DNA of 64,000 bases from the sequence record PQ310662.1; one strand, given 5' to 3'. The notes under the pieces were generated by a model that was not told the DNA's origin, searched no databases, and saw only the letters and a program-made list of their open reading frames with translations. The DNA is from Escherichia phage Mimir124. This document shows, piece after piece, positions 5,215 to 28,477 of this stretch. Position 1 is the stretch's first letter. Every line of letters begins with the position of its first letter. A program made the position numbers and the translations under genes.

Positions 5215-6030
5215 ATGTACTCATCAATAGAACATCAGAAGCAACTCGAAGTACTATTCAATAAAAATCAATTACTGCCTCGCATGAGGAAGGAATTCGA
5301 GGACTCCAAAGAAATTGACTTTAAGGCATTCGCTGCCTATTTAGAAATAGATTATAAGCTGCTCATTGATGCAATGGTGCAGATTGCCCTACATAAACGT
5401 GCTGATATCCAGACTATGATTGGCTCTCTCATGAGCCACTCAGATGATGCTCAGTACATCGCTGACTGTCTGTATAAGATGGCAGAGAATGACTGCTTCA
5501 ACTATGACCCTACTATAGACAAGTTCGGTGTTATCTATGAGATTAGTGAAGATGTTCAGATGGAACTGGAAGCATTCCAGTATCCATTGCCTATCGTAAG
5601 TGCTCCTAATCCTGTTAGAACTAACCGGGATACCGGTTATTACCAGACTAAAGGAAGCATTATCCTCAAGAAGAACCATCATGAGATGGACGTCTGCCTT
5701 GACCACATCAACCGTATGAACAATCAACGTCTCTGTATTAACTGGGACGTTGCCAACTATGTAAAAGACTCCCGTCCTAACATGGATAAACCCAAAGATG
5801 GTGAAACCCGTCAGGACTATGAGAAACGAGTTAAAGCCTTTGAGAAGTACAGTCGTACTGCTAAGGAAGTAATGGAGTTAGTGACTCAGGAAGGTAATAA
5901 CTTCTCACTAGCGCATCGTTACGACAAACGAGGCCGCACGTACTGTGCTGGATACCATATATCCTACCAAGGCACTTCATATAACAAAGCTGTCATTGAA
6001 TTTGCCGATAAAGAACTAGTAGAGGACTAA
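5215..6030 (+). CDS. T7-like single-subunit RNA polymerase, N-terminal subunit (N4 RNAP II small-subunit-like)
   Basis: RYDKRGRTYCAGYHISYQG resembles the T7 RNAP D.RGR.Y region; 271 aa; followed by the second RNAP part at 6555. Confidence 0.7.
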   Translation: MYSSIEHQKQLEVLFNKNQLLPRMRKEFEDSKEIDFKAFAAYLEIDYKLLIDAMVQIALHKRADIQTMIGSLMSHSDDAQYIADCLYKMAENDCFNYDPTIDKFGVIYEISEDVQMELEAFQYPLPIVSAPNPVRTNRDTGYYQTKGSIILKKNHHEMDVCLDHINRMNNQRLCINWDVANYVKDSRPNMDKPKDGETRQDYEKRVKAFEKYSRTAKEVMELVTQEGNNFSLAHRYDKRGRTYCAGYHISYQGTSYNKAVIEFADKELVED

Positions 6031-6536
6031 TGAAACCAACTCAAGCAGAGTTGATGGAACTACTCGACTATGACCCAGTGAATGGAACATTTCATTGGAC
6101 TCATAGTCCATTGGTGTACATCAACGTAAGAGGTAAGGAGACTGGCCTAACAGGCTCCAGAGGACATCGCAAGATTGTCATTAATAAGCAAGATTACAAA
6201 GCTCACCATGTGGCTTGGTGCATAATGACTGGCGTATGGCCTGAACAAGTTGACCACAATGATACGAACCGAGCTAATAATCGCTGGGATAATCTACGTG
6301 AGGCAACCCACACACAGAACATGCGCAATAGAACCATGAGCAAGAATAACACTTCTGGATTTAAGGGTGTTCGTATGCGTAATGGTAAGTATCTGGCGCA
6401 GATACAGGTTAATGGCTCTAAAGTAGAATTAGGATCATTTAGTGACCCTGTAGAAGCCGCTAAAGCCTATGATGCCGCTGCAATCAAATACTTTGGTGAG
6501 TTCGCCAAAACAAATAAAGAACTTAACAACTACTAA
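6030..6536 (+). CDS. HNH homing endonuclease with AP2-like DNA-binding domain
   Basis: VDHNDTNRANNRWDNLREATHTQN (HNH) plus SGFKGV...AAKAYDAAAIKYFGEFA (AP2-like); ATG overlaps the stop of the preceding RNAP subunit. Confidence 0.75.
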   Translation: MKPTQAELMELLDYDPVNGTFHWTHSPLVYINVRGKETGLTGSRGHRKIVINKQDYKAHHVAWCIMTGVWPEQVDHNDTNRANNRWDNLREATHTQNMRNRTMSKNNTSGFKGVRMRNGKYLAQIQVNGSKVELGSFSDPVEAAKAYDAAAIKYFGEFAKTNKELNNY

Positions 6537-6554
6537 TCCACTAATGCGAGCCAA

Positions 6555-7799
6555 ATGGCTCAAGACGCTAAGGAATATAGAATGCAACTGTTAACTGCCC
6601 GTGAATACCTGAAAGTAGATATCGCTAATAACTATGGCTTAGATAAGAAGACATGGGATGAACGTATTAGCTGGTTCGATGAGAACGAAACTAACCTGCT
6701 CAATCTGGTAGATGAAGCAGAAGAATCTGCACTGTTCTATGCTGGTGTAAATGCATGGAATGATATGAAAGCAGGTAAGCCTATCGGGTATGCTGTAGCT
6801 CTGGATGCTACATCATCTGGCTTGCAATTACTGGCCTGCCTGACTGGTGACCGCTCTGCTGCTGAACTGTGTAACGTAGTTAACTACATGGGAGAGAATG
6901 GTAAGCCATTACGTCGTGATGCTTATACAGTCATCTATCACAAGATGCTGGACATCCTTGGTGAAGCATCTCGTATTAAACGTAGTGACACTAAGCAGGC
7001 TGTTATGACTGCATTCTACGGTTCTGAAGCCAAACCTAAAGAAGTATTCGGTGAGGGTATTCGTCTCAAGACTTTTGAGAATGTAATGGAAACTGTTGCT
7101 AGTGGTCCTTGGGCACTTAACAAGTTCTTACTGCAATGTGGTAACCCGGATGCCAACCGTTACGTATGGATACTGCCTGACAACTTCCACGCTGTCATTA
7201 AGGTAATGGTTCCTGAAGTACAGACTGTTAACTTCTTAGGTAAGCCATTCGACATCACTCGTATGGTTCAGGGTACTGAAGAAAAGACTCGTATGCTCTC
7301 TGCTAACATCACCCACTCTATTGATGGGATGGTGGTACGTGAGATGCTGCGTCGTTGTAACTTCGACCGTGACTTAGTGGAAGCTGTGCGAGAACTCTGT
7401 GATGAAGGTCCATCAGAATATGGGGAAATTGCAGGTAACCTGGAGAAAGTACAAGAGCTATGGAGCCATTATGAGAAATCTGGCTTCTTATCTTTATCTA
7501 TCCTGGATTATCTTGACCCATGTACTATTGCTTATGTAGACCGTCAGGTAGTGGCAGATATGATTGACACTTTGCCTAAGAAACCTTTCCCTGTAATGAC
7601 TGTGCATGACTGCTTCCGTTGCCATCCTAACTACGGTAATGACCTGCGTCGTCAATACAACCAGATTCTGTCTGACATTGCTAAGAGCGACCTATTGGGA
7701 TTCATCTTGTCTCAGGTACTGGGTCAAGAGTTCTCTGCTGGTAAGCTGGATGACAGCCTCTGGCAGGACATTCTTGAAACAGACTATGCATTAAGTTAA
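6555..7799 (+). CDS. T7-like RNA polymerase, catalytic subunit (N4 RNAP II large-subunit-like)
   Basis: [25 protein letters not shown] parallels T7 [29 protein letters not shown] motif-C-like; 414 aa. Confidence 0.75.
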   Translation: [414 protein letters not shown]

Positions 7800-7806
7800 T
7801 AAACTA

Positions 7807-7841
7807 GCCTCATTCCTTCGGGAATGGGGCTTTTATTTTTT
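7807..7841 (+). terminator. rho-independent terminator
   Basis: gcctcattcc-ttcg-ggaatggggc followed by ttttatttttt. Confidence 0.65.
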
Positions 7842-7843
7842 CT

Positions 7844-8041
7844 TTGGAGGTAGCAACTATGCTAATCACTTTTGAAGTAATCTTTCAGTTAATACTGATA
7901 GTTTTATCTATACTGGCTCTGGCTACGATAGTTCGTGCCCACAAGTCTAAGTTTGCTTACTGCTACTATGGGGCATACTCACTTGGCTGCTTTGTAATGG
8001 CAGGATGGATAGCTTTTGCTCTCTACTGTGTAATCAACTAA
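7844..8041 (+). CDS. small membrane protein (65 aa)
   Basis: Two hydrophobic segments; flanked by terminators at 7807 and 8041. Confidence 0.35.
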   Translation: MEVATMLITFEVIFQLILIVLSILALATIVRAHKSKFAYCYYGAYSLGCFVMAGWIAFALYCVIN

Positions 8042-8068
8042 CCCACCACTAGGTGGGTTTATTTTTTT
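8041..8068 (+). terminator. rho-independent terminator
   Basis: acccacc-acta-ggtgggt followed by ttatttttttac. Confidence 0.6.
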
Positions 8069-8115
8069 ACATGTCATGTATACTAACCCAGCTATTTACT
8101 TATGAGGAAATTGAT

Positions 8116-8949
8116 ATGCCAACTTTGAAAGTAAGTTTTAACAAAACCACTAATGTCGCAACTGTACTGGATGCCAGTGGTTCTATTCCAGGTGGTTCCG
8201 TAGAAGTAGGAACCTTTGTACACCCGGATGCCACTTACCCTGATAGCTTAGTTATCTATCACGGTGTACGTGATCTGCTGTATAGACGCTCTGCTAAAAA
8301 CCCAGCTGAAGCAGGCTTCTGGCCTGACAACATCGTGGATATGCAGGCCATCTCTATTGATATGAAAGCTACTCCACGACTGACTATTGCTACCAAACTG
8401 CCTCGTGTAGTCTCTGCTATCGAAGGTGAAGACATCAACTGGCACATTGATGTAGCAGGTGGTAAAGCACCATTTACTTATAAATGGCAGTTCAAAGCAA
8501 ATACTGCTGGTGCAGCATTCGCTGATATTAGCTCCAGTACTAACCCATCTGCTGCTACTGCAACACTGACTATTAATGGTGTAACAGCTGCTTCTGCTGG
8601 TACTTATAAAGTGATTGTTACTGATGCTAATGGAACCACTGTAGAAGATGAGTCGCTACTGGCTGTAGGCTATTATGAAGCAAGTTCACTAGTAGCTACA
8701 CCTGCTTCACTGTCTCTGTCTGTTGCTGCTGATACTACCGATGGTAAGAACGTAACAATTGCTGCTATACCTGTTGGTTCATCTGCTGGTACTTTGTCTA
8801 TTAAGACTGCTCCGGATTCCGGTCGTGCTACAGCTACCATTTCTGGTAACGTACTGACGGTTAAACCAGTGGCTGCTGGTAAAGCTACTTCTGTTGTAGT
8901 TACAAATGGTACTGTTGATGTAACCATCGCTATTACTGTTGCAGAATAA
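8116..8949 (+). CDS. Ig-like domain protein (N4 gp17 capsid-decoration-like by position)
   Basis: Thr/Ala/Val-rich beta-strand repeats (TATLTINGVTAASAGTYKVIVTDANG); start set to ATG 8116 with AGGAAA upstream; sits just after RNAP II. Confidence 0.5.
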   Translation: MPTLKVSFNKTTNVATVLDASGSIPGGSVEVGTFVHPDATYPDSLVIYHGVRDLLYRRSAKNPAEAGFWPDNIVDMQAISIDMKATPRLTIATKLPRVVSAIEGEDINWHIDVAGGKAPFTYKWQFKANTAGAAFADISSSTNPSAATATLTINGVTAASAGTYKVIVTDANGTTVEDESLLAVGYYEASSLVATPASLSLSVAADTTDGKNVTIAAIPVGSSAGTLSIKTAPDSGRATATISGNVLTVKPVAAGKATSVVVTNGTVDVTIAITVAE

Positions 8950-8999
8950 GGGTATCCCTTATTTGGGGTTATAAACTCTGAGATAAAACCCTCAAGTTT

Positions 9000-9030
9000 G
9001 ACCTCCCTATTGAAGGGAGGTCTTTTTTTT
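9000..9030 (+). terminator. rho-independent terminator
   Basis: gacctccc-tattgaa-gggaggtc followed by tttttttt. Confidence 0.7.
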
Positions 9031-9055
9031 GACTTAAACAAACTGGAGCCAGGAA

Positions 9056-9244
9056 ATGTATAAAGAGATTGCATTCTTCTCGTTCTTGTTAGGTGGGTTA
9101 ATTGGTGCAGGATTTGTAGCTATTTCTAATACCTACTTTGGTTCTACTCCAAACTCTGTAACGCAAACCCTCAAGCATGAATGTGAATTGAATATCCCTC
9201 GTAATCAAAGCTGCGTAATGCAGTTCGTACCGGAGAAGAAATGA
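9056..9244 (+). CDS. small membrane protein (62 aa)
   Basis: N-terminal TM segment (FFSFLLGGLIGAGFVAI). Confidence 0.35.
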   Translation: MYKEIAFFSFLLGGLIGAGFVAISNTYFGSTPNSVTQTLKHECELNIPRNQSCVMQFVPEKK

Positions 9245-9426
9245 AACTTACTCAGTCCCAAGCAATTTTCCTTCGCATGGTTCAAGGTGGTTCTGCCACC
9301 AGCAACCGTAATAACAAAACGGCACAGTCTCTTAAGAAGCTGGGCTTAGTACAGTTCAATGCTGGTCTTGGGTGGTCATTAACCCCTACCGGAGTACTTC
9401 AACTTAACGAATTAAAAGGTAACTAA
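9241..9426 (+). CDS. hypothetical small protein (61 aa)
   Basis: Coupled ORF (4-bp overlap). Confidence 0.35.
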   Translation: MKLTQSQAIFLRMVQGGSATSNRNNKTAQSLKKLGLVQFNAGLGWSLTPTGVLQLNELKGN

Positions 9427-9753
9427 ATGAAAACTTTAATTGCTGTTGTTCTAGTAGCTTTATCAGTTCTTTCATTCGGTGCTCAAGCATCTAGCCGTGC
9501 AACCTTATTGGAAGCTGCTGCTGATTACAAAGCCAATAATGCAAACTTTGTGAATCAGGGTTACTTCATGGGTATGGTTACTATGGGTGTGGAAGCAGGA
9601 AAAAATTGTGTACCTGACGATATGAAATTAGGGCACATTTTTGACAGAGTGGCATCTATTATTCTGTATGACCGAAAGGTTAATGCAGTAAAAGTACCAT
9701 CAGACATGATTTTGTTGGCGATTGATACAGCGTATCCCTGCGTTAAATCTTAA
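9427..9753 (+). CDS. secreted/periplasmic small protein with signal peptide
   Basis: MKTLIAVVLVALSVLSFGAQA-SS: positive n-region, hydrophobic core, AxA cleavage motif. Confidence 0.45.
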   Translation: MKTLIAVVLVALSVLSFGAQASSRATLLEAAADYKANNANFVNQGYFMGMVTMGVEAGKNCVPDDMKLGHIFDRVASIILYDRKVNAVKVPSDMILLAIDTAYPCVKS

Positions 9754-9787
9754 TTAGTAATTCCATTAACTTTAGGAGAGTAAGTAA

Positions 9788-10840
9788 ATGGCGAGCATTG
9801 ACTCCTTGACTGTATGTAATACACGCCAAGCCCGTAACTTTATTATCCGTGCCTTGCAAGCAGGTAACGTGCCGTTCCTGACTTCATCACCAGGCATGGG
9901 TAAGTCTGCAATTATCCGTTCTGTTGCAGATGAATTTGGTATGAAGCTGATTGACCATCGTCTGTCTACTTCTGCCCCAGAAGACTTATCTGGTCTGCCA
10001 TTCCGTAATGGTGACCGCGCAGAGTTTATCCCTTTTGCTGACTTATTCCCTATTGAGGGGGATGAAGTACCTGAAGGTTATAATGGCTGGCTCCTGTTCC
10101 TTGATGAGTTCAACTCAGCTAAGAAAGAAGTAGTAGCTGCTGCATACAAACTGATTCTCGACCGTATGACTGGTCAGAAGAAACTTCACCCTAATGTAAT
10201 GATTGTCTGTGCCGGTAACAAAGCTACTGACCGAGCCATCGTTAACCCACTGGGTACTGCAATGCAGTCCCGTGTTGTCCACTTCGAAATGGAACTTAAC
10301 TTCGACATCTTTGTTGAAGACGTAATGATTCCGCAAGAATGGGATGAGCGTCTGGTTGCATTCTTACATGCTAACCCTGGCTATCTGCACGACTTCGACC
10401 CTGCCCATAAGAACAAAACATTCTGTTGCCCTCGTACCTGGGACTTTGTTAACAAAGACCTTAAGAACCGACCAGAAGGCGCTCTTCCTGATGAAGATTC
10501 TATCTACTATGCAGGTCACGTTACTGCCGGTAAAGCTACAGAGTTTGTTCAGTTCACTCAGGTATACAATCGTATGATTACGATTGAGAAGGTAGTCAAA
10601 GACCCTTTGGGATGTACACTGCCTGAAGATAATAACCTGTGCTGGGCTACCGTTAACCATCTGGCTAACAAGACCACTGAAGATAACTTCGCTGATGTTC
10701 TTCAGTATATTGAACGCTTTAAAACGTTCACTCATAAGATTCTGTACTTCCGTACAGTAGGCAAAGCATTACCAGAAATTCAGGCTACCCCTGAATGGCG
10801 TAAGGCTGCTGCCAATATCTCTCGTTACATTCACGGATAA
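9788..10840 (+). CDS. MoxR-like AAA+ ATPase
   Basis: Walker A SPGMGKSAI, Walker B LLFLDEFN; 350 aa; VWA partner downstream. Confidence 0.7.
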   Translation: MASIDSLTVCNTRQARNFIIRALQAGNVPFLTSSPGMGKSAIIRSVADEFGMKLIDHRLSTSAPEDLSGLPFRNGDRAEFIPFADLFPIEGDEVPEGYNGWLLFLDEFNSAKKEVVAAAYKLILDRMTGQKKLHPNVMIVCAGNKATDRAIVNPLGTAMQSRVVHFEMELNFDIFVEDVMIPQEWDERLVAFLHANPGYLHDFDPAHKNKTFCCPRTWDFVNKDLKNRPEGALPDEDSIYYAGHVTAGKATEFVQFTQVYNRMITIEKVVKDPLGCTLPEDNNLCWATVNHLANKTTEDNFADVLQYIERFKTFTHKILYFRTVGKALPEIQATPEWRKAAANISRYIHG

Positions 10841-10847
10841 TCACATC

Positions 10848-11324
10848 ATGAACTGGAATGACTTGTTCACATACAGCAATGGTGCTCTTTACTGGAAAGT
10901 ATCTAGAGGCCGTGCACTAGCTGGGGCTGTTGCCGGGAGTGTGGACAATAGTGGATACGTTAGAGTCAAATGCTTCAAAAAGATGTACTTGGTTCACCGT
11001 ATAATCTATGAAATGGAAATCGGCCCAATCCCTGATGGCTACCAGGTAGACCATATTGACCATAACAGGTTAAATAACTACCCAAGTAACTTCCGTTTAG
11101 TCACCAATTTAGATAACTGCCGTAACCAAAAGAAAAGGATAACCAATTCTTCTGGTATTACAGGAGTCTATTGGCACTCCAGAGATGAAATATGGGCTGC
11201 TTCCATAAATGATAATGGTAAGCAAATTTATTTAGGAAAATTCCCTAGTAAAGAAGAAGCTGCTAAAGCCAGGAAAGAGGCTGAAAAGCTTATTGGTTAC
11301 CATAAAAATCATGGAGCACCTTAA
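10848..11324 (+). CDS. HNH homing endonuclease with AP2-like domain
   Basis: VDHIDHNRLNNYPSNFRLVTNLDN plus SGITGVYWH...AAKARKEAEKLIGY; paralog of 21725 ORF; inserted between ATPase and VWA genes. Confidence 0.7.
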   Translation: MNWNDLFTYSNGALYWKVSRGRALAGAVAGSVDNSGYVRVKCFKKMYLVHRIIYEMEIGPIPDGYQVDHIDHNRLNNYPSNFRLVTNLDNCRNQKKRITNSSGITGVYWHSRDEIWAASINDNGKQIYLGKFPSKEEAAKARKEAEKLIGYHKNHGAP

Positions 11325-12499
11325 TGAATAACATACCTACACATACCCTTACTGATGAACAGTTAATGAGGGAGTACGACAGGATCCAAGCCAACGCATT
11401 TCTTGGACGCAGCGCAGCGTTTTTTGGTTCATTGCTGTGTAGTCTTAAGTTCTCATGGAAACGTGAGGACTGTCCTACTGCATGTACCGATGGGATAGAA
11501 CTCCATTTCAACCCAGACTTCTTTATCTGGATGTGTCCCGATGCAAGAGAAACAGTGCTAATGCACGAACTCTGGCATGTGGCATATCTGCACGGCATCC
11601 GTTGTGGAAGCCGTGACCCGGAAGTCTGGAACCAGGCATGTGACCACTTCATCAACCTTCAGTTAGAAGAAGATGGTTACAAGTTCACTGGTATCGACAA
11701 AGGCATTTGCAAAGACCCTCAATATAAAGGATGGGTCGAAGAAGACATCTACGATGACCTGATGAAGAACCCTCAGAAAAGGCAGAAGCCGTCAGGGGGT
11801 GCTGGAGCAGGTCTTGCTGGCGACATGAAAGCTCCCTCTTCGGGGCAGTCCCAGGGTGCTGTTGTCAACAACGTAGTACGTGCAATGCAAAGCCAGAAGA
11901 TGGCTGGTGGAATGATGCCCGGTAAAGGTGCTGGTCGTATGGAAGAGGTAATTACCCAATTCCTTAAACCAGTGGTTCCTTGGCAGGAAGTCCTGCTGAA
12001 CTTCTTTACCGACATTGATGACACACACTATACGTGGGCCAGACCTAATCGTCGTTTCACTGACATCTATCTACCTTCTCTGGAAGATGATGAAGGACGC
12101 TTACGACACTTAGCTTACTTTGAGGATGTATCTGGTTCTATTAGTAGTGCTGACTCTCTGCGTTTTAACTCAGAGGTTGCCTACGTTAAGAGCCAGTTCA
12201 ATCCTAAGAAGATGACCCTTATTACCTTCGACGATATTATCCAAGAAGAAATAGACATCACTGAAGAAGATACTTTTGAAGAGATTAAGATTACCGGTCG
12301 TGGTGGTACAAACCTTGAACCAGTGCGTGAATGGATTATTAAGAATAAGCCAACCGCTGCAATCATATTCTCTGATATGTATGTTAAACCAATGGAAGAA
12401 TTACCATTTGATATCCCTATCATCTGGTGTGTTCTGAATAATCCCAATGCTACCGTACCTTTTGGGGAGGTAGTTCATATCCATAAAGGAATGAAATAA
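11324..12499 (+). CDS. VWA-like protein with HExxH motif (partner of AAA+ ATPase)
   Basis: MHELWHVAYLH motif in N-terminal part; C-terminal region with VWA-like alternation; pairing with MoxR-type ATPase. Confidence 0.45.
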   Translation: MNNIPTHTLTDEQLMREYDRIQANAFLGRSAAFFGSLLCSLKFSWKREDCPTACTDGIELHFNPDFFIWMCPDARETVLMHELWHVAYLHGIRCGSRDPEVWNQACDHFINLQLEEDGYKFTGIDKGICKDPQYKGWVEEDIYDDLMKNPQKRQKPSGGAGAGLAGDMKAPSSGQSQGAVVNNVVRAMQSQKMAGGMMPGKGAGRMEEVITQFLKPVVPWQEVLLNFFTDIDDTHYTWARPNRRFTDIYLPSLEDDEGRLRHLAYFEDVSGSISSADSLRFNSEVAYVKSQFNPKKMTLITFDDIIQEEIDITEEDTFEEIKITGRGGTNLEPVREWIIKNKPTAAIIFSDMYVKPMEELPFDIPIIWCVLNNPNATVPFGEVVHIHKGMK

Positions 12500-13005
12500 T
12501 GGTTGTTAACGGTAATTCTCTATATCGTTCGTCTCAATTGCTGGATGTACCAGACCGTAAGGTATCCGAGCATGGTGTAAGTTATGGGCTAGGTGAAGCC
12601 GGTTATGATATTCGTATCAAACAAGACATCACCTTCTATCGCTTATTTGGGTTGATTCCAATGGTGAAAATCGTTGATGGAAAACAAGTATCACGCCATC
12701 TCGGTAAATTCGCATTGGCTTCAGCAATTGAGAAGTTCAATATGTCCCCATCCTGTGTAGCTATCGTTCATGATAAATCCACATGGGCAAGACGTGCATT
12801 ATCAGTATTTAATACCGTAATAGAACCAGGGTGGAAAGGTTGGCTTACTTTAGAGCTTGTCTACCATGGTCGTAAGAAATTGCATATCCCGGCTGGTTCT
12901 GGGATAGCTCAAGTATTATTTCATCTGGTTCAAGAACCTGCTAATTACAATGGCAAGTATATGAACCAGGAAAACAAACCAGTAGCTGCTAGACCTTCAA
13001 AATAA
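12499..13005 (+). CDS. dCTP deaminase/dUTPase-fold protein
   Basis: GYDIRI and VIEPGWKGWLTLELV resemble dCTP deaminase motifs (GYDLR; IDPGfrG.l.lEl). Confidence 0.55.
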   Translation: MVVNGNSLYRSSQLLDVPDRKVSEHGVSYGLGEAGYDIRIKQDITFYRLFGLIPMVKIVDGKQVSRHLGKFALASAIEKFNMSPSCVAIVHDKSTWARRALSVFNTVIEPGWKGWLTLELVYHGRKKLHIPAGSGIAQVLFHLVQEPANYNGKYMNQENKPVAARPSK

Positions 13006-13035
13006 AAGGCTATCCGGCTTAGTCAAGGAAACAAT

Positions 13036-13236: not shown

Positions 13237-13273
13237 GTAGCTGCCTAAATAGCCCAGCATAATTGGGCTATTT

Positions 13274-21124: not shown

Positions 21125-21303
21125 TGGTTAGCATTGATAAGGTGGATATACGGGAAGTAATCACACCCCTAAAGCAAACCGTTATAAGGATTTGTGTAAA
21201 GTACAACGGACACTTTGGTCAATTCTTTGAAGGCTTGTCTCTAGAAGATGCGATGAAAGAGTTCGGAGAATGGTATAAGAACCAGTCCTAGCCTGTTCAA
21301 AAG

Positions 21304-21334
21304 CCCTCACTTGTAATAAAGTGAGGGTAATTTT
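21304..21334 (+). terminator. probable terminator
   Basis: ccctcactt-gtaata-aagtgaggg hairpin followed by taatttt. Confidence 0.45.
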
Positions 21335-21350
21335 GAGGAGGAAATAAGCT

Positions 21351-21707
21351 ATGTCTAAAGTATTCAGAAGTAATCGCAAAGCAACTGATGAAGACATCAT
21401 TCGCATGAATGCTGTTGGTCTGTCCCTCGCAACTATCGCTAAGACGTTGGGGGTTCACCCCACTACGGTTACACTTCGGCTACGTTCTTTGAATATAGAA
21501 CCTGCGGATACAAGAAGAACCTTTATGGAAAATGTTCTAACTCCACTACCTACACCTATGATTGATTGGTTAGCTGAACAGCTCGGCCCTAAATATGAAA
21601 TTAGGCAGTTTGTAAGGGATTTGCTGATAGATGCCTATAAGAATAGACAAGCAACAGACCTCCCTGCACACATCCGTTACTTACGGGCATATGGGGGGGA
21701 AGAATAA
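21351..21707 (+). CDS. putative HTH DNA-binding protein
   Basis: LSLATIAKTLGVHPTTVTLRL resembles a helix-turn-helix. Confidence 0.4.
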   Translation: MSKVFRSNRKATDEDIIRMNAVGLSLATIAKTLGVHPTTVTLRLRSLNIEPADTRRTFMENVLTPLPTPMIDWLAEQLGPKYEIRQFVRDLLIDAYKNRQATDLPAHIRYLRAYGGEE

Positions 21708-21724
21708 TTTCCATAGAGGTACTA

Positions 21725-22204
21725 ATGCATAATTGGAATGAAATACTTACCTACTCTAACGGTAAGCTGTACTGGGCAATAAAACCGAAACGGGGTACAC
21801 AAATAGGTGACCCCGTGGGAAATCCGAATAAAAACGGGTATTTACGTTTTCAATATAAAGGAAAACATTATTTAGTCCACCGCATTGTGTGGGAAATGCA
21901 CTATGGAGAAATACCCATGGGAATGCAGGTAGACCACATATGGCATAACAAGCTAGATAATAGGATAGAGAATCTTAGGTTAGTGACTCCTCTGGATAAC
22001 CAGAGAAACAGAAGTAAAGCTCCAAAAAATACATCAGGAGTTACAGGTGTATGTTGGAGCAAACCAAGTGCTAAGTGGTTAGCGAGTATAACTGTTAAGG
22101 GTATTCGTAAACACTTAGGAATGTTTGACAATATAGAGGATGCTGCAAAAGCCCGTAAGCAAGCAGAATTGCTTTACGGATTCCATCCTAATCACGGTAA
22201 ATAA
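21725..22204 (+). CDS. HNH homing endonuclease with AP2-like domain
   Basis: VDHIWHNKLDNRIENLRLVTPLDNQRN plus SGVTGVCW...AAKARKQAELLYGF; N-terminus parallels the 10848 ORF. Confidence 0.7.
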   Translation: MHNWNEILTYSNGKLYWAIKPKRGTQIGDPVGNPNKNGYLRFQYKGKHYLVHRIVWEMHYGEIPMGMQVDHIWHNKLDNRIENLRLVTPLDNQRNRSKAPKNTSGVTGVCWSKPSAKWLASITVKGIRKHLGMFDNIEDAAKARKQAELLYGFHPNHGK

Positions 22205-22206
22205 CT

Positions 22207-22659
22207 ATGAGTAATTCTTTAAACGATACGCTGGAAAACACACGGCAATGGTTTGAAATCGCAGTAGCGAATCCGACGAGTAAGAACATTAGTACCCAGA
22301 TTGGTTGTCATCTGGAAGAAGTAGCTGAAATGCTGGAGACAATTAGTAGTATCTATAAAGATGACGCTAAAATACTTGCTTCCTTACACGATGCTATTAA
22401 CTACGTAGCAGACCGTATTAAACAAAACGGTGGTATTGTTGTGAAAGACCCTATAGGACTTTTGGACAGCATTGCTGATCAGATTGTTACAGCAACTGGC
22501 GTCGGTACTTTCCTTGGGATGAATGTCCCTGGAGCATTGGCTGAAGTCAATCGCTCAAACTATTCCAAGTTCGAAGATGGGGAACCTATCTTCAACGAGA
22601 ACAAGAAAGTCATGAAAGGGAAAGACTACACTCCCCCCGATTTATCACCTTACATCTAA
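22207..22659 (+). CDS. MazG-like nucleotide pyrophosphohydrolase (putative)
   Basis: HLEEVAEMLE and DSIADQIV resemble MazG-type EE..E / D..D metal-binding helices. Confidence 0.4.
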   Translation: MSNSLNDTLENTRQWFEIAVANPTSKNISTQIGCHLEEVAEMLETISSIYKDDAKILASLHDAINYVADRIKQNGGIVVKDPIGLLDSIADQIVTATGVGTFLGMNVPGALAEVNRSNYSKFEDGEPIFNENKKVMKGKDYTPPDLSPYI

Positions 22660-24553: not shown

Positions 24554-27133
24554 ATGCGTTACATCACCTCTCAGGATACTGGTAAGTATCCTATTGCTAT
24601 CCTCGGTCATCAAATCCGAAGGGAGGAGATGATTAAAACCTACCTGCTGCCTTATGACCTAAGCATGGAAGATTTCATCTTCCTTGAACTTCATTCTGCC
24701 CCTGGCAAGAAGAAAACTCCTGCAAGGGAGATTAAAGAGTTCATTCAGCAGGAACTACAACAAGTACTGGATGATGCAGAGACTCAGTACATTATCTGTA
24801 CCGACTCTGACTACTTCAAAATACTGACTAAAGAAGCTAAAGCAGAGGCTAACCTCGGCTATGTTTGCGACTCAGTATGGGGTAAACAGAAGGTTATCTA
24901 TACACCTAGCTACAGGCAGGTCTTTTATGACCCACCTGTGGTAAAAGCCAAGATTGCTCAGGGTATGGATGCATTACTTAACCACATTCGTGGGCAGTAT
25001 GCTGAACCAGGTCAGGGAATCATTGAGTTTGAAGCCTATCCAGATACACCCGAAAAGATTAAAGCCTGGCTAGACCAGTTGCTTGAGATGAATAAGCCTC
25101 TGGCTATAGACATCGAATCATTCGGTTTAAAGCACTATAACGCAGGCATAGGAACGATTACGTTCTGTTGGAGCAAGACACAAGGCATAGCCTTTAATGT
25201 GGACTACGAGCCAATTAAGGGGGCTACTGAGGCTCCTTATGGGCGTATTAACAGGAATGATGTTGTTCGTAACCTGTTGCGTGAGTTCTTCATTAAGTAC
25301 ACTCAACGGCAGATGTATCACAACATTAGCTATGACGTGTACATACTTATCTATCAGTTATTCATGGATAACCTGATTGATACGGAAGGCTTACTACATG
25401 GCATGGATATCATGCTACGTAATTGGGACTGTACTAAGTTAATCACCTACCTGGCTACTAACAGTTGTGCTGGCAATCACCTTAGTCTGAAAGAACAGGC
25501 CCAAGAGTATGCTGGTAACTACGCTCAGGATGATATTAAAGACATTCGTCTTATTCCTAATGAGCAACTGCTACGCTACAACCTCATTGATGGTTTGTGT
25601 ACGTGGTACACCTACGAGAAGCACTGGGATACTCTCATTGCTGATGACCAACTGGATGTTTACAACAACATCTTTAAACCAGCCTGTGAAGACATTATTC
25701 AGATGCAGTTAACCGGTATGCCCATGAATATGGAAACCGTTAACCAAGTAGCTGAAGAGATGGAAACTGACAGGAACCAGGCTCTGAAAACTATTCGTGA
25801 GTCTAAGCTCATGAAGAATTTCACCCTGATGCTTCGTCAGGAATGGGTAGATGATAAGAATGCTAAGCTCAAGAAGAAACAAGTAACACTTGCTGACTGT
25901 GACATCGAGTTTAACCCAAACTCTGGTCCACAATTACAAAAACTGTTATTTGATTATATTGGCTTACCAGTTCTTGGTCTTACTAAGAGCAAGCAACCTG
26001 CTACTGACGGTGACACTATTAAAGCACTGCGTACACATACGCAGAGTGAAGATGTTAAGGAACTGCTCAATGCACTTATCGACTATAAGCTCGTGGATAA
26101 GATTATCACTAGCTTCATCCCGGCTTTTAGAAATGCCCAACCTGGGCCAGATGGTTGGCACTACCTATTCGGCAACCTCAATTTGGGGGGAACAGTTTCT
26201 GGTAGATTATCTGCCTCTGAGCCAAACCTGCAAACCATACCGTCTGGTTCTAAGTATGCCAAGAAGATTAAGAAATGCTTCGAAGCACCACCAGGTTGGA
26301 TATTTTGTGGACTGGACTTTGCGAGCCTTGAAGACCGTATCTCAGCTTTAACTACTAAAGACCCACAGAAGCTTAAGGTATATACCGATGGCTACGATGG
26401 TCACAGTCTCCGTGCATATGCTTACTTCGGTGAGCAGATGCCAGACATAGTAGATACTGTAGAATCCATTAACTCCATTCAGCATAAGTACAAATCCTTA
26501 CGTAGTGACTCGAAGGCTCCAACCTTCCTACTTACCTATGGTGGTACATATATGGGCTTAATGAAAAACTGTGGCTTCTCTGAAGAGAAGGCTAAGACTA
26601 CAGAGAAGCGTTATCACGACCTCTATGTGGTAAGTGATATGTGGGTTCAGGCTAAGCTAGACGAAGCTGCCAAAACTGGTTATGTTACTGCTGCATTTGG
26701 TTTGAGAGTGCGTACTCCTTTACTGGCTCAGGTATTACGTGGGACATGTAAGACTCCATATGAAGCAGAAGCTGAAGGCAGAACTGCTGGCAATGCCTTG
26801 GGGCAAAGCTGGTGTCTACTGAATAACCGTGCTGGTTCAGAGTTTATGCGTAAAGTCAGAGCCAGTGAGTTCAGGCTAGATATACGCCCTAGTATTCACA
26901 TTCATGATGCACAGTACTTCATGATTCGTGACAACATGGATACCTTGCAGTACACGAACAAGCATTTGGTTGAAGCCGTTAACTGGCAAGACCATCCTGA
27001 TATTGCTCATCCAGAAGTTGGTTTGGGCGGGGAACTATCCTTGTTCTACCCAACGTGGGCTAACGAGATTGAGATTCCAAATCACGCTACCCCAGAAGAA
27101 GTTCATCAAATAATTCAAAAGGCATTCGCATGA
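24554..27133 (+). CDS. family A DNA polymerase with 3'-5' exonuclease domain
   Basis: IDIESFGL (exo I), RLSASEPNLQTIP (motif A region), KAPTFLLTYGGTYMG (motif B), IHIHDAQYF (motif C); 859 aa. Confidence 0.85.
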   Translation: MRYITSQDTGKYPIAILGHQIRREEMIKTYLLPYDLSMEDFIFLELHSAPGKKKTPAREIKEFIQQELQQVLDDAETQYIICTDSDYFKILTKEAKAEANLGYVCDSVWGKQKVIYTPSYRQVFYDPPVVKAKIAQGMDALLNHIRGQYAEPGQGIIEFEAYPDTPEKIKAWLDQLLEMNKPLAIDIESFGLKHYNAGIGTITFCWSKTQGIAFNVDYEPIKGATEAPYGRINRNDVVRNLLREFFIKYTQRQMYHNISYDVYILIYQLFMDNLIDTEGLLHGMDIMLRNWDCTKLITYLATNSCAGNHLSLKEQAQEYAGNYAQDDIKDIRLIPNEQLLRYNLIDGLCTWYTYEKHWDTLIADDQLDVYNNIFKPACEDIIQMQLTGMPMNMETVNQVAEEMETDRNQALKTIRESKLMKNFTLMLRQEWVDDKNAKLKKKQVTLADCDIEFNPNSGPQLQKLLFDYIGLPVLGLTKSKQPATDGDTIKALRTHTQSEDVKELLNALIDYKLVDKIITSFIPAFRNAQPGPDGWHYLFGNLNLGGTVSGRLSASEPNLQTIPSGSKYAKKIKKCFEAPPGWIFCGLDFASLEDRISALTTKDPQKLKVYTDGYDGHSLRAYAYFGEQMPDIVDTVESINSIQHKYKSLRSDSKAPTFLLTYGGTYMGLMKNCGFSEEKAKTTEKRYHDLYVVSDMWVQAKLDEAAKTGYVTAAFGLRVRTPLLAQVLRGTCKTPYEAEAEGRTAGNALGQSWCLLNNRAGSEFMRKVRASEFRLDIRPSIHIHDAQYFMIRDNMDTLQYTNKHLVEAVNWQDHPDIAHPEVGLGGELSLFYPTWANEIEIPNHATPEEVHQIIQKAFA

Positions 27134-27435
27134 CTAAAAGTACTAAAGAAACCGTCGTCAAAAAATATCATTGGATGGTGGCAGCACAGGTAATCTTCCA
27201 GCTTCCTAAAGCCGATGATGGTTCCCTGCTTACCATGAACACAATGCTGCTCACTGACGAACCTCATGTGACGTATAAAGATTTGGCCCGTGTCAATCAC
27301 TCTCTGAAGATTAGTCTGGACCAGCGTTTTGATACTTCGGTTGACCTGAAAGACATTGTTTATCTGTCCATCAATAACCTGGGTCTGATGTCTGAACCAG
27401 AGTTCCAGGCAAACATGATTCCCAAGGGGGAATAA
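27130..27435 (+). CDS. hypothetical protein (101 aa)
   Basis: ORF overlapping the DNA polymerase stop by 4 bp. Confidence 0.4.
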   Translation: MTKSTKETVVKKYHWMVAAQVIFQLPKADDGSLLTMNTMLLTDEPHVTYKDLARVNHSLKISLDQRFDTSVDLKDIVYLSINNLGLMSEPEFQANMIPKGE

Positions 27436-27908
27436 TGACTAAGCTCTCCGGCGGATTGAATAACTGGTATGTAGTACCAATTAAGAACCCCCAACGGAAA
27501 GAGCAAGAGCCATACCAAGCAGAGTGTGAGGATATTATCCAAGCACTGGGCATGACCTTTGATGAAGGTTGTGCCTTTAAAGCTCTATGGCGAAACGCTG
27601 CTGCCCGTATGGGTAATGGTAAACCTGGAAACACTACAGTGTATGATTGTGAGAAGCTAGTTCATTATGCTAATCGTCTACTTGCTAAAGCTTACCTTGA
27701 TTCTAGGGATAGTGGTGAAGTAGTTAAGTTGGAAGAATCCTGTACCGATTGGGTTTACAGTAATGAAAGACCTTCCTTCATGCGTAAGTGGAAGAAGATT
27801 GAGTATGAGTACAAAAACCATTGTAAAACATACACATGCTTTTCGGGAGAACCACAGTTCCAGTCTATCAATTGGGCAGATATTTACCGTTATAGGATTT
27901 TCTACTAA
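27435..27908 (+). CDS. hypothetical protein (157 aa)
   Basis: ORF coupled to preceding gene. Confidence 0.4.
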   Translation: MTKLSGGLNNWYVVPIKNPQRKEQEPYQAECEDIIQALGMTFDEGCAFKALWRNAAARMGNGKPGNTTVYDCEKLVHYANRLLAKAYLDSRDSGEVVKLEESCTDWVYSNERPSFMRKWKKIEYEYKNHCKTYTCFSGEPQFQSINWADIYRYRIFY

Positions 27909-27979
27909 TGAAAATAACCAACAACCATGATGTCTCACTGGCCCTGGCTGTATGGCTATTGCATGACGAGTAACTAATT

Positions 27980-28477
27980 ATGAAACAGAGGATTGCCCAT
28001 GACAGGCTTTTACAGCTTGTTAGTTATGACCCTATTTCCGGGATTTTTACTCGTAGGAATACCGGAAAGGTATCCGGTTACCTAATGAAGAGTGGCTACA
28101 TTCAACTTCGTGTGGATAGCGTGTTGTACTATGGGCATATCCTTGCATGGTTTTATGTGCACGGTGTATGGCCTACGGATAGGATTGACCATAAGGACAA
28201 TATACGCCATCACAACTGGATAGATAACCTCAGAGAAGCGACCCACAAGCAGAATAACCAGAGTGCTGTTTTATCTAAAACAAACACATCTGGGTTTAAG
28301 GGTGTCTCCTTTTCAAAGAGTATGGGTAAGTACAGAGCAACTATTTGGGTTAATAGCAAACCAATTACATTAGGTTACACAGATAACCCAATAGAGGCTG
28401 CTGTTCTCTACGATGAAGCTGCTGTAACTCATTATGGTGAGTTTGCCAAAACCAACAAACAATTAGGACTGTTATGA
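27980..28477 (+). CDS. HNH homing endonuclease with AP2-like domain
   Basis: IDHKDNIRHHNWIDNLREATHKQN plus SGFKGV...YGEFAKTNKQL; close paralog of 6030 ORF. Confidence 0.7.
   Translation: MKQRIAHDRLLQLVSYDPISGIFTRRNTGKVSGYLMKSGYIQLRVDSVLYYGHILAWFYVHGVWPTDRIDHKDNIRHHNWIDNLREATHKQNNQSAVLSKTNTSGFKGVSFSKSMGKYRATIWVNSKPITLGYTDNPIEAAVLYDEAAVTHYGEFAKTNKQLGLL

What the first reader, a model, noticed from the sequence alone, without database searches (positions are those of the whole stretch)
6030..28477. Four paralogous HNH-AP2 homing endonucleases inserted beside essential genes, one splitting the two RNAP II subunit genes
ORFs at 6030, 10848, 21725 and 27980 share an HNH core (DH.D/N.R.NN...NLR) and a C-terminal AP2-like domain (SG.KGV...AAKAYD/AAKARK). 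They fall into two closer pairs (6030 with 27980; 10848 with 21725). They sit between the RNAP II subunits, between the AAA+ ATPase and its VWA partner, before the MazG-helicase block, and right after the DNA polymerase. This is the classic free-standing homing endonuclease pattern and marks sites of mobile-element-driven mosaicism.
Basis: partly seen in the sequence, partly recalled or inferred. Interest (0 to 1): 0.55.

Follow-up and report, generated by a model that had tools for sequence, protein, structure and literature searches.

The report
Four HNH-AP2 homing endonuclease genes
This G7C-like (N4-family) coliphage carries four small selfish nuclease genes wedged between or into the ends of core replication and transcription genes; close relatives have clean empty sites, so the reading is correct, but this kind of element is already well known in these phages.

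Summary
ORFs 6030-6536, 10848-11324, 21725-22204 and 27980-28477 all have an HNH_3 nuclease core and a C-terminal AP2 DNA-binding domain. All four keep the catalytic D-H...N...N residues.

The window is a Gamaleyavirus (G7C-like), about 91-92% identical to its best relatives. At every site most relatives have an empty junction: 34-35, 7-10 and 1-2 nt between the flanking genes, or overlapping flanks. Only 2 to 12 phage records carry the same gene at a given site, and no record has all four.

The genes are under purifying selection (dN/dS 0.05-0.09 where measurable). Each is linked to a 50-110 nt recoded block in the adjacent core gene.

The site-4 element lies inside gp42. A 21-codon remnant of the original gp42 start sits upstream, and a recoded copy restores the gene downstream.

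- H4 lies two genes after the DNA polymerase.
- The four are independent acquisitions from a family found in more than 2,000 phage records.
- Mosaicism is genome-wide and not confined to these sites.

G7C's homing endonucleases and the HNH-AP2 family are already published. This is an ordinary, well-supported case with one useful architectural detail. Nuclease activity is untested.

The parts
5215..6030 (+). gp15 homolog, small subunit of the N4-type RNA polymerase II; left flank of site 1
   Evidence: 91-97% aa identity to the gp15 genes annotated in G7C and relatives. No Pfam hit.
5917..6027 (+). HEG-linked diverged block at the 3' end of gp15; inferred region of the H1 target site
   Evidence: There are 11 alignment columns where the HEG-bearing genomes (window, PW8) share no base with the 10 others, all within the last 111 nt. 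Identity to the other genomes falls to 0.60-0.73 here, against 0.94-0.97 further upstream.
6030..6536 (+). H1, HNH-AP2 homing endonuclease gene (168 aa); its start overlaps the gp15 stop (TAATG)
   Evidence: HNH_3 E 2.5e-14 and AP2 E 4.5e-5. The model's C-terminal domain has the AP2 fold. The same gene occurs only in PD205 and PW8, at 90.5% aa. dN/dS against PW8 is 0.05.
6582..7799 (+). gp16 homolog, large subunit of RNA polymerase II; right flank of site 1 (start revised from 6555)
   Evidence: Pfam RNA_pol PF00940, E 1.3e-13. The junction alignment shows the upstream ATG is not conserved.
9788..10840 (+). gp24 homolog, AAA ATPase; left flank of site 2
   Evidence: Pfam AAA; 95-98% aa identity to relatives.
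10848..11324 (+). H2, HNH-AP2 homing endonuclease gene (158 aa); its stop overlaps the gp25 start (TAATG)
   Evidence: HNH_3 E 9e-19 and AP2 E 9.3e-9, the latter above the curated cut-off. Orthologs are G7C gp24.1 (77% aa) and UE-S5a (81.5%). Eight of the 11 fetched relatives have 7-10 nt here instead.
11324..12499 (+). gp25 homolog (DUF2201 metallopeptidase-like plus VWA-like domains); right flank of site 2
   Evidence: Pfam DUF2201_N E 2e-54 and DUF2201 E 1.6e-34.
11330..11385 (+). HEG-linked recoded block at the 5' end of gp25; inferred region of the H2 target site
   Evidence: Nine columns are fixed between HEG-bearing and empty genomes within nt 7-48 of gp25. They include multi-step synonymous changes (CGT to AGG, CTC to TTA). 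There is no association beyond about nt 62.
21351..21707 (+). gp35 homolog (HTH protein) with a replaced C-terminus; left flank of site 3
   Evidence: 118 aa here against 131 aa in empty genomes, where gp35 overlaps gp36. The C-terminal ~30 aa differ; the same C-terminal type is shared only with K57alpha1.2, while pSb-1 has the empty-type gp35 C-terminus cut at its own HEG junction.
21725..22204 (+). H3, HNH-AP2 homing endonuclease gene (159 aa)
   Evidence: HNH_3 E 5e-21 and AP2 E 3.4e-3. I-HmuI (1U3E) is the only solved relative by sequence, E 1.4e-3. An ortholog occurs only in K57alpha1.2 and NAN33P5 (72% aa). pSb-1 and U1G carry a different HNH at the same site (pSb-1's is 47% identical to H3); the remaining relatives have a shorter span with no HEG (fetched empties: gp35/gp36 overlap).
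22207..22659 (+). gp36 homolog (MazG-like NTP pyrophosphohydrolase, named from relatives' annotation) with a replaced N-terminus; right flank of site 3
   Evidence: 60-73% aa identity to relatives. The first ~8 codons differ, and identity with G7C resumes at ACGCTGGAAAACAC.
27435..27908 (+). gp41 homolog (3'-phosphatase/5'-polynucleotide kinase per some relatives' annotation); left flank of site 4; dimorphic allele
   Evidence: 88-94% aa identity to 24-32N, phiG17 and K57alpha1.2, but 60-63% to G7C, PW8, Bp4, EC1-UPM, UE-S5a and SP5M. Both allele types occur with and without the HEG.
27908..27973 (+). Remnant of the original gp42 start: 21 codons (MKITNNHDVSLALAVWLLHDE) then TAA; its ATG overlaps the gp41 stop
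   Evidence: 57-60 of 63 nt are identical to the functional gp42 5' ends of HEG-less phages, but only 43 of 63 to this window's own gp42 5' end. It is present in all six HEG-bearing genomes. G7C's remnant is 63/63 identical to SP5M's functional start. It forms a direct repeat with a spacing of 566 nt.
27980..28477 (+). H4, HNH-AP2 homing endonuclease gene (165 aa); its stop overlaps the gp42 start (ATGA)
   Evidence: HNH_3 E 2.7e-9 and AP2 E 5.4e-4. It is the ortholog of G7C gp41.1 (98.8% aa) and occurs in 8 phages (12 records). dN/dS is 0.07-0.09.
28474..28536 (+). Recoded copy of gp42 codons 1-21, carried by the HEG cassette, which restores a full-length gp42
   Evidence: 20 of 63 nt differ from the remnant but 17 of 21 aa are kept (for example Ser TCA to AGT). 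The association with HEG presence ends exactly at codon 21. HEG-less K57alpha1.2 carries this recoded type, 60/63.
28474..29454 (+). gp42 homolog (exonuclease per RefSeq annotation of relatives); host gene of the site-4 insertion
   Evidence: 96-99% aa identity to nine of the eleven fetched relatives (lower, and split into two HSPs, in pSb-1).

Best explanation
The four ORFs are free-standing homing endonuclease genes (HEGs) of the HNH-AP2 family. Each was acquired independently and sits at its own site in the early/middle gene cluster of a G7C-like N4-family phage.

Inferred mechanism:
- The AP2 domain gives sequence-specific DNA binding.
- In a mixed infection, the I-HmuI-like HNH (HNN) active site nicks or cuts the HEG-less allele of a co-infecting relative. 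The cut falls at or next to the insertion point: the gp15 3' end, the gp25 5' end, the gp35/gp36 overlap, and codon ~21 of gp42.
- Recombinational repair from the HEG-bearing genome copies in the cassette together with a short flanking tract.
- The host genome is protected because the site is interrupted and/or recoded.

Each cassette is built to be harmless. It keeps start/stop overlaps with its neighbours, has no terminator-like site between it and its neighbouring genes, and rebuilds the gene end where it lands in coding sequence (gp35/gp36, gp42). At site 4 the retained 63-nt remnant would serve as the left homology arm for homing. It probably also couples H4 translation to gp41.

Shown here: domain architecture, intact catalytic residues, presence/absence polymorphism with exact empty sites, purifying selection, HEG-linked recoded blocks, and independent assortment of the four genes.

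Inferred: cleavage, target positions, homing, translational coupling.
For: Domains: HNH_3 in all four and AP2 by Pfam, by PDB profile and by fold. I-HmuI is the only solved sequence relative.

Active site: D-H...N...N is invariant in all four.

Empty sites in relatives: the gap between flanking genes is 34-35 nt at site 1 (phiG17, EC1-UPM), 7-10 nt at site 2 (8 of 11 relatives) and 1-2 nt at site 4 (6 of 11). At site 3 the flanking genes overlap (8 of 11). The window has 486-568 nt at these positions.

Census of the phage collection: the same HEG is found in 2 of 58 matching records at site 1, about 6 of 58 at site 2, 2 of 74 at site 3 and 12 of 78 at site 4. Other occupants, including unrelated HNH genes, use the same sites.

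Independent assortment: G7C has H2+H4, PW8 has H1+H4, PD205 has H1 only, K57alpha1.2 has H3 only and UE-S5a has H2. No record has all four.

Selection: dN/dS is 0.05 for H1 and 0.07-0.09 for H4. For H2 and H3, dS is saturated with dN 0.13-0.21, while the flanks stay ~95% identical.

Linked blocks: recoded blocks lie next to each HEG.

Site-4 architecture: remnants in different genomes share polymorphisms with naive alleles (G7C's remnant equals SP5M's functional start, 63/63). This points to insertion into several backgrounds. K57alpha1.2 looks like a HEG-loss or resistant allele.

Family size: 1,863-2,777 phage records at E<=1e-10, often several copies per genome.

Literature: the HNH-AP2 HEG family is recognised, and nuclease genes sit at recombination boundaries (PMC10448857). 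G7C was noted to have 5 HNH homing endonuclease genes, none disrupting a gene (PMC3670811).
Against: No member of this exact clade was shown here to cleave DNA, and none has a demonstrated target. I found no paper testing a Gamaleyavirus HEG.

Presence/absence alone cannot separate gain by homing from ordinary recombination and loss.

The recoded blocks could simply be sequence co-transferred from a divergent donor, with no role in immunity.

The AP2 hit is below Pfam's curated threshold in three of the four proteins. Foldseek did not recover the small HNH domain from the model.

Strong purifying selection over long divergence (H2, H3) is more than a purely parasitic, decaying element would need, and leaves room for a benefit to the phage.
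Confidence: 0.85

Rival explanations
1. The proteins are kept mainly because they benefit the phage, and selfish spread is secondary. For example, they could act as weapons that degrade or exclude co-infecting relatives (marker exclusion). Alternatively, they could be AP2-type DNA-binding regulators of the neighbouring genes.
For: dN/dS is 0.05-0.09, similar to the core genes at 0.02-0.07. H2 and H3 orthologs stay intact despite saturated synonymous divergence. The genes are tightly integrated into operons, with overlapping start and stop codons and no terminator-like site between the HEGs and their neighbouring genes. HEG DNA-binding domains are known to be co-opted (PMC10448857).
Against: Most close relatives do without each gene, and some have none at these four sites (for example phiG17). 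That argues against a needed function. Truncated copies exist in relatives (Bp4 site 2 annotated at 312 nt, EC1-UPM site 4 at 393 nt, pSb-1 site 3 at 309 nt), as expected for dispensable elements. Marker exclusion is itself part of standard HEG biology, so this is not a truly separate mechanism.
Confidence: 0.1
2. The four genes arose by duplication within this genome lineage (true paralogs) and are vertically inherited. Relatives simply lost them.
For: They share one architecture and fall into two closer pairs of 43% and 51% identity. K57alpha1.2 looks like a loss at site 4.
Against: The copies share no nucleotide similarity beyond a few matches of 35 nt or less. H3 is 61% identical to a Salmonella siphovirus HEG and 52-54% to many other siphovirus HEGs, against 51% to H2. 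H4 is about 51% identical to HEGs at the gp42/gp43 junction of other Gamaleyaviruses and in Burkholderia N4-like phages, against 43% to H1. HEG orthologs are far more diverged than their flanks (73% against 95% nt at site 2), which does not fit simple co-inheritance. Remnants at site 4 match different naive backgrounds.
Confidence: 0.03
3. The ORFs are inactive relics or non-nuclease DNA-binding proteins, or they are intron-encoded and not free-standing.
For: Activity is untested. Related N4-like phages do have HNH genes that split gp24, the DNA polymerase and gp43, possibly in introns (PMC3670811).
Against: The catalytic D-H, N and N residues are intact in all four. The ORFs are full length and under purifying selection. 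Rfam finds no group I or group II intron anywhere in the window. No flanking gene is split: every flank is a complete ORF, colinear with the uninterrupted genes of relatives.
Confidence: 0.02

Closest known systems
HNH homing endonuclease genes of Escherichia phage vB_EcoP_G7C (gp24.1 and gp41.1) and other Gamaleyaviruses
   Same: These are direct orthologs at the same sites. H2 is 77% aa identical to gp24.1 and H4 is 98.8% identical to gp41.1. They are annotated as putative HNH homing endonucleases in the original G7C record. The literature notes that G7C has five such genes that disrupt no gene (PMC3670811).
   Different: The window also has H1 (shared only with PD205 and PW8, 90.5%) and H3 (shared only with K57alpha1.2 and NAN33P5, 72%). 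G7C has an unrelated endonuclease VII-like HNH at site 1 and nothing at site 3. No record has this combination of four.
HNH-AP2 homing endonuclease family (Magnani, Sjolander and Hake 2004, as cited in PMC10448857; PHROG 99)
   Same: An N-terminal HNH nuclease followed by a C-terminal AP2 DNA-binding domain, in small (~160 aa) free-standing phage genes.
   Different: None in architecture. The ICP1 'IPA-HNH' subgroup of Barth et al. is too divergent for the HNH_3 Pfam profile, whereas these four match HNH_3 strongly.
I-HmuI (PDB 1U3E), HNH homing endonuclease of Bacillus phage SPO1
   Same: It is the only solved structure found by sequence, E 1.4e-3. The alignment covers the segment from the conserved VDH through the NLR motif, with the Asn positions conserved. 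From my own knowledge, I-HmuI is an HNN-type enzyme without a zinc site, and it nicks one strand.
   Different: I-HmuI is intron-encoded and, from my own knowledge, uses NUMOD-type and helix-turn-helix modules for DNA binding where these proteins have an AP2 domain. Whether H1-H4 nick or make double-strand breaks is unknown.
Free-standing seg and mob endonuclease genes of T4-like phages ('intronless homing': SegF, SegG, MobE) - from my own knowledge; the general T4 background is cited in PMC10448857
   Same: Both are intergenic HEGs beside conserved genes. Both are sporadic among relatives, cleave the neighbouring gene of HEG-less relatives, co-convert flanking markers, and carry protective polymorphisms in the HEG-bearing allele. 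The 50-110 nt HEG-linked blocks seen here fit that pattern.
   Different: The nuclease folds differ (GIY-YIG for Seg, a different HNH type for Mob) and they lack an AP2 domain. The T4 cases are experimentally demonstrated and these are not.
HEG cassettes that insert into a coding sequence and carry a replacement gene end, such as the fungal mitochondrial atp6 case of Allomyces - recalled from memory, not checked here
   Same: The site-4 element sits inside gp42. It leaves the original 21-codon start as a dead remnant and supplies a diverged copy that restores the reading frame. Site 3 likewise rebuilds the gp35 end and the gp36 start.
   Different: Here the 5' end is replaced, where the mitochondrial case replaces the 3' end. 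The setting is a phage and the nuclease family differs. I did not find this architecture described for Gamaleyaviruses, but I did not search for it exhaustively.

Membership tests
HNH-AP2 homing endonucleases | HNH (beta-beta-alpha-metal) nuclease domain with catalytic His and Asn residues | tested here: met
   Pfam HNH_3 E 2.7e-9 to 5e-21, above the curated cut-off, in all four. D75, H76, N84, N88 and N97 are invariant. They align to I-HmuI across the motif. Foldseek on the whole model did not recover this small domain.
HNH-AP2 homing endonucleases | C-terminal AP2 DNA-binding domain (three-stranded sheet plus helix) | tested here: met
   Pfam AP2 is above the cut-off in H2 only and sub-threshold in H1, H3 and H4. 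A profile of nine C-terminal domains hits AP2/ERF structures, E 1.1e-10 to 6e-5. The H1 model has strands 114-117, 120-127 and 130-137 and helix 140-155, and it superposes on the TEM1 and AtERF1 AP2 domains at 1.8-2.3 A.
Free-standing homing endonuclease genes | Sporadic presence among close relatives, with precise empty sites | tested here: met
   Empty junctions of 1-35 nt, or overlapping flanks, occur at all four sites in relatives that are 90-97% identical in the flanks.
Free-standing homing endonuclease genes | Not inside an intron or intein; flanking genes intact | tested here: met
   No intron family is found in the window. All flanking ORFs are complete and colinear with those of relatives. 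At sites 3 and 4 the gene ends are rebuilt by the cassette.
Free-standing homing endonuclease genes | HEG-bearing allele differs from the HEG-less allele at or near the insertion point (self-protection or co-conversion tract) | tested here: met
   Fixed differences are confined to the last ~110 nt of gp15, nt 7-48 of gp25 and codons 1-21 of gp42. The gp35 and gp36 ends are replaced. Whether these changes block cleavage was not tested.
Free-standing homing endonuclease genes | Site-specific cleavage of the HEG-less allele | not testable with these tools
   This needs purified protein and target DNA. No published assay for this clade was found in the paper searches.
Free-standing homing endonuclease genes | Super-Mendelian inheritance (homing) in mixed infection | not testable with these tools
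   Only indirect support is available. The four genes assort independently among genomes, and the site-4 remnants match several different naive backgrounds.
Intron-encoded HNH endonucleases (I-HmuI type) | Located within a self-splicing group I intron that interrupts a gene | tested here: not met
   There is no Rfam intron hit, and no host gene is interrupted in the window.

The most novel reading that the evidence does not exclude
The site-4 element (and in a looser form the site-3 element) may represent a distinct, undescribed design of phage HEG cassette. The unit inserts inside an essential coding sequence, after codon 21 of gp42. It carries a heavily recoded replacement for the displaced gene start. 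The displaced original start is kept as a translated 21-codon mini-ORF with two roles: it is the left homology arm for homing, and it passes ribosomes from gp41 to the endonuclease by termination-reinitiation. If this is right, the cleavage site can be read straight from the sequence (around CATGAYGAG|TATGATTA in gp42). HEG-less but recoded alleles such as that of K57alpha1.2 would then be naturally resistant 'scars'.
Probability: 0.3. Interest if true: 0.45.

Novelty: new member of a known kind. Interest (0 to 1): 0.28.

Why it matters
For annotation, these four ORFs can be labelled putative HNH-AP2 homing endonucleases. The 27908-27973 mini-ORF should be labelled a gp42 remnant and not treated as a gene.

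For phage biology, the comparison gives concrete and cheaply testable predictions of four homing sites in genes of the N4-type replication and transcription machinery. It also offers a natural series of naive, occupied and resistant-empty alleles for studying the homing cycle in a phage group used in therapy and in ecology collections.

It does not reveal a new kind of element. The family, its presence in G7C-like phages and the free-standing homing pattern are all established.

Tried and rejected
- Fifth copy: a weak tblastn hit on the minus strand at 15918-15760 (E 0.015) translates to a sequence with no HNH motif, so it is chance.
- Other HEG types: the endonuclease VII-like, gp24-internal, polymerase-internal and post-dCTP-deaminase HNH proteins of relatives have no counterpart in the window apart from cross-hits to H1-H4.
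- Introns: Rfam at gathering threshold finds only one tRNA in the window.
- Own promoters or terminators: sigma-70-like sites are at or below chance and none flanks a HEG. Strong terminator-like hairpins lie after gp16 (7806), at 8040 and 9000, and after gp36 (22658), but not between the HEGs and their neighbours. N4 middle promoters are not covered by this scan, so the result is weak evidence.
- IMG/VR pattern scans for the site-4 left junction and for the recoded HEG-less allele returned only G7C and ECBP1, or nothing, which adds no new genomes.
- Foldseek of the H1 model against the PDB confirmed the AP2 domain but did not retrieve I-HmuI or another HNH domain.
- Mosaicism: the idea that it is concentrated at the HEG sites was rejected. 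A 300-nt sliding comparison with 11 relatives shows many switches of nearest relative away from the HEGs (for example 7400-8300, 12800-13700, 15200-16100, 17000-18800, 26000-26600).
- I did not run the large protein-database searches, because the phage-collection tblastn and the profile searches already settled family membership.
- Magnani et al. 2004 (PMC520932) is not held in the library. It is cited only through PMC10448857.

Full report
**1. What is there**

The window is a G7C-like member of the N4 family (genus Gamaleyavirus, Schitoviridae). The 24.5-kb stretch around the finding matches 48 phage records over at least 80% of its length, at 90-92% identity, and none is closer. This is therefore a new genome within a well-sampled genus.

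The four ORFs are real:

| Name | Coordinates | Length |
|---|---|---|
| H1 | 6030-6536 | 168 aa |
| H2 | 10848-11324 | 158 aa |
| H3 | 21725-22204 | 159 aa |
| H4 | 27980-28477 | 165 aa |

- **Nuclease domain.** All four match Pfam HNH_3 above the curated threshold, E 2.7e-9 to 5e-21. All four match PHROG 99, 'HNH endonuclease', E 1e-60 to 1e-68.
- **AP2 domain.** The Pfam AP2 match clears the threshold only in H2, so I tested it further. A profile of nine C-terminal domains (the four here plus five from relatives) hits solved plant AP2/ERF domains: WRI1 E 1.1e-10, TEM1 9e-7, ERF096 6e-6, AtERF1 6e-5. An AlphaFold model of H1 (mean pLDDT 74) has a three-stranded sheet plus helix. It superposes on the TEM1 and AtERF1 AP2 domains at 1.8-2.3 A with probability 1.00.
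- **Closest structure by sequence.** This is the HNH homing endonuclease I-HmuI (1U3E, E 1.4e-3), aligned across the VDH...NLR...N motif.
- **Catalytic residues.** D75, H76, N84, N88, R90, T93 and N97 (H1 numbering) are invariant among the four.
- **Pairing.** H1/H4 share 43% and H2/H3 share 51%, against 31-34% between pairs.
- **Copy number.** There is no fifth copy and no other HNH type in the 64 kb.

**2. Genomic setting, with corrections**

Using N4/G7C gene names:

- H1 lies between gp15 and gp16, the two RNA polymerase II subunit genes.
- H2 lies between gp24 (AAA ATPase) and gp25 (DUF2201/VWA-like).
- H3 lies between gp35 (HTH protein) and gp36 (MazG-like), upstream of the gp37 helicase.
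- H4 lies between gp41 and gp42 (exonuclease). This is two genes after the DNA polymerase gp39, not directly after it.

The HEGs are packed tightly against their neighbours:

- gp15's stop overlaps the H1 start (TAATG).
- H2's stop overlaps the gp25 start (TAATG).
- H3's stop is 2 nt before the gp36 start.
- H4's stop overlaps the gp42 start (ATGA).

No terminator-like hairpin separates a HEG from its neighbours, and sigma-70-like sites are at or below chance. There is no intron. The real gp16 start is probably 6582.

**3.

I queried each HEG with about 800 nt of flank against 50,697 phage records. I then mapped exact junctions in 11 fetched relatives.

| Site | Same HEG found in | Empty state in relatives | Other occupants of the site |
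|---|---|---|---|
| 1 | PD205 and PW8 (2 of 58 records) | 34-35 nt (phiG17, EC1-UPM) | A 53-aa ORF, a 79-aa ORF, an endonuclease VII-like HNH (G7C, Bas96, pSb-1), a different 168-aa HNH (UE-S5a) |
| 2 | G7C, UE-S5a/b, UE-M3/M6; a diverged, partly decayed version in Bp4-type phages | 7-10 nt in 8 of 11 fetched relatives; about 40 records have the empty-length span | - |
| 3 | K57alpha1.2 and NAN33P5 (72% aa) | gp35 and gp36 overlap | Another HNH in pSb-1 and U1G |
| 4 | Eight phages (12 records) | 1-2 nt | - |

No record carries all four. G7C has H2+H4, PW8 has H1+H4, PD205 has H1, K57alpha1.2 has H3 and UE-S5a has H2. The genes therefore assort independently.

**4. Functional and not decaying**

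- dN/dS is 0.05 for H1 against PW8 and 0.07-0.09 for H4 against three relatives. This is similar to the core genes, at 0.02-0.07.
- H2 and H3 orthologs have saturated dS with dN 0.13-0.21. They are only 67-75% identical in DNA, while their flanks are about 95% identical. These HEG lineages are therefore much older than, or come from outside, the backbone they sit in.
- Truncated copies in relatives (Bp4, EC1-UPM, pSb-1) show the expected decay elsewhere.

**5. Same family, but not intragenomic duplicates**

- tblastn at E<=1e-10 finds the family in 2,027 records (H1), 2,777 (H3) and 1,863 (H4). These are mostly Salmonella, Escherichia, Klebsiella and Vibrio phages, often with several copies each.
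- H3 is 61% identical to a HEG of Salmonella phage STP-SP5 and 52-54% to many siphovirus HEGs. That is as close as or closer than H2.
- H4 is about 51% identical to HEGs at the gp42/gp43 junction of other Gamaleyaviruses and in Burkholderia N4-like phages, which is closer than H1.
- The four share no DNA similarity beyond a few matches of 35 nt or less.

**6. Anatomy of the junctions**

Each HEG is linked to a short block of substitutions in the adjacent core gene.

- **Site 1.** Eleven fixed differences lie in the last ~110 nt of gp15. Identity to HEG-less genomes is 0.60-0.73 there, against about 0.95 upstream.
- **Site 2.** Nine fixed differences lie within nt 7-48 of gp25. They include multi-step synonymous changes (CGT to AGG, CTC to TTA). 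Nothing is associated beyond about nt 62.
- **Site 3.** In empty genomes gp35 (131 aa) overlaps the start of gp36. In the window and K57alpha1.2 the gp35 C-terminus and the gp36 N-terminus are both replaced, and the HEG sits between the now separated genes. pSb-1 has a different HEG inserted within the same overlap.
- **Site 4** is the clearest.
  - Directly after gp41's stop comes ATG 27908 and 21 codons (MKITNNHDVSLALAVWLLHDE), then TAA.
  - These 63 nt are 57-60/63 identical to the functional gp42 starts of HEG-less phages.
  - Six nt later H4 begins.
  - At its end the functional gp42 starts with a recoded version of the same 21 codons: 43/63 nt identical, 17/21 aa kept, Ser TCA to AGT.
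  - The HEG association stops exactly at codon 21.
  - The mobile unit is therefore a 566-nt insertion after nt 63 of gp42 that brings its own replacement gene start.
  - All six HEG-bearing genomes have the remnant with an open frame.
  - The remnants carry the same polymorphisms that segregate among naive alleles, and G7C's remnant is 63/63 identical to SP5M's functional start. This fits repeated insertion into different backgrounds.
  - K57alpha1.2 lacks the HEG but has the recoded start (60/63). The simplest reading is HEG loss by recombination between the repeats, leaving an allele that should resist cleavage.

**7. Mechanism**

This part is inferred from established knowledge of HNH homing endonucleases and of intronless homing in T4.

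- The AP2 domain recognises a site that spans or adjoins each insertion point.
- The HNN-type active site nicks or cuts the naive allele of a co-infecting relative.
- Repair copies in the cassette plus a short tract.
- The resident genome is protected because the site is split and recoded.
- At site 4 the naive site CATGAYGAG|TATGATTA is absent from both junctions of the occupied allele.
- The remnant mini-ORF ends 6 nt before the H4 ATG, which lacks a good Shine-Dalgarno sequence. This suggests translation by termination-reinitiation from gp41.

**8. Mosaicism**

A 300-nt sliding comparison with 11 relatives shows that the nearest relative changes many times across 5-29.6 kb. Strongly dimorphic segments lie far from any HEG, for example at 7400-8300, 12800-13700, 15200-16100 and 26000-26600. 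The HEGs mark local exchange. They do not account for the general mosaic structure.

**9. Comparison with what is known, and verdict**

- The HNH-AP2 HEG family has been recognised since Magnani et al. 2004, as cited by Barth et al. 2023. That paper also shows nuclease genes at boundaries of exchange between phages (PMC10448857).
- G7C's record annotates gp24.1 and gp41.1 as putative HNH homing endonucleases.
- A comparative paper notes G7C's five such genes, none disrupting a gene (PMC3670811).

The finding is therefore correct and ordinary: new alleles and a new combination within a known kind. The modest added value is the set of site-level target predictions and the gene-end-replacing architecture at gp42 and at gp35/gp36, which I did not see described. 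Cleavage and homing are untested.

Noticed in passing
window 35862-35936 (+): This is the only RNA gene found in the window. It is a tRNA (Rfam 62.6 bits) that ARAGORN calls tRNA-Ile with anticodon AAT, an anticodon not normally used unmodified in bacteria.
   Followed up: no
L002 (phiG17) 2043-5465, L009 (SP5M) 18302-21576, L007 (Bp4) 19500-21966: In several relatives the DNA polymerase gene is split into two ORFs by a different HNH gene, at two different positions (after about aa 581 and about aa 617). The window's polymerase (24554-27133) is uninterrupted. Whether these are introns or genes-in-pieces was not examined.
   Followed up: partly
L003 (PW8) 4888-6808, L011 (pSb-1) 5045-6965: The gp24 ATPase gene is interrupted after codon 67 by an HNH-AP2-like gene with about 100-200 nt of non-coding flank on each side. 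This layout would suit a group I intron. The window's gp24 is intact.
   Followed up: no
window 6027-6582, and the same junction in relatives: The gp15/gp16 junction is a hotspot with at least six different states among relatives: empty, a 53-aa ORF, a 79-aa ORF, an H1-type HNH, a UE-S5a-type HNH, and an endonuclease VII-like HNH of 193-204 aa.
   Followed up: partly
window 27435-27908 (gp41): gp41 exists as two very different alleles: 88-94% against 60-63% aa identity to the window's. They are unlinked to H4 presence. In Bas96 and pSb-1 the gene is truncated to about 87 aa.
   Followed up: partly
L005 (OY979416.1, Klebsiella phage vB_Kpl_K57alpha1.2): The deposited annotation does not fit the sequence. 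Structural genes such as virion RNA polymerase and portal are drawn on the minus strand over what is clearly the early/middle replication region, which suggests a coordinate offset in the record.
   Followed up: no
RefSeq records of SP5M, phiG17, St11Ph5, ZQ2 and others (L002 16259-17434, L009 5815-6990): The gp25 DUF2201/VWA-like protein is named 'HNH endonuclease' in several HEG-less RefSeq genomes. This is probably a name carried over from genomes where a HEG is adjacent. It would mislead any HEG count based on annotation.
   Followed up: no
window 5000-12600: Sigma-70-like promoter matches are strongly depleted, with 4 found against 16.6 +/- 4.1 in shuffles. Terminator-like hairpins are enriched, with 11 against 4.5 +/- 2.3, and strong ones lie at 7806, 8040 and 9000. 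This fits transcription by the phage's own polymerases.
   Followed up: no
window 7400-8300, 15200-16100, 26000-26600: These segments have two sharply different allele classes among relatives, for example 0.70-0.79 against 0.92-0.95 identity at 7400-7700 in the 3' end of gp16. None is next to a HEG in the window.
   Followed up: no
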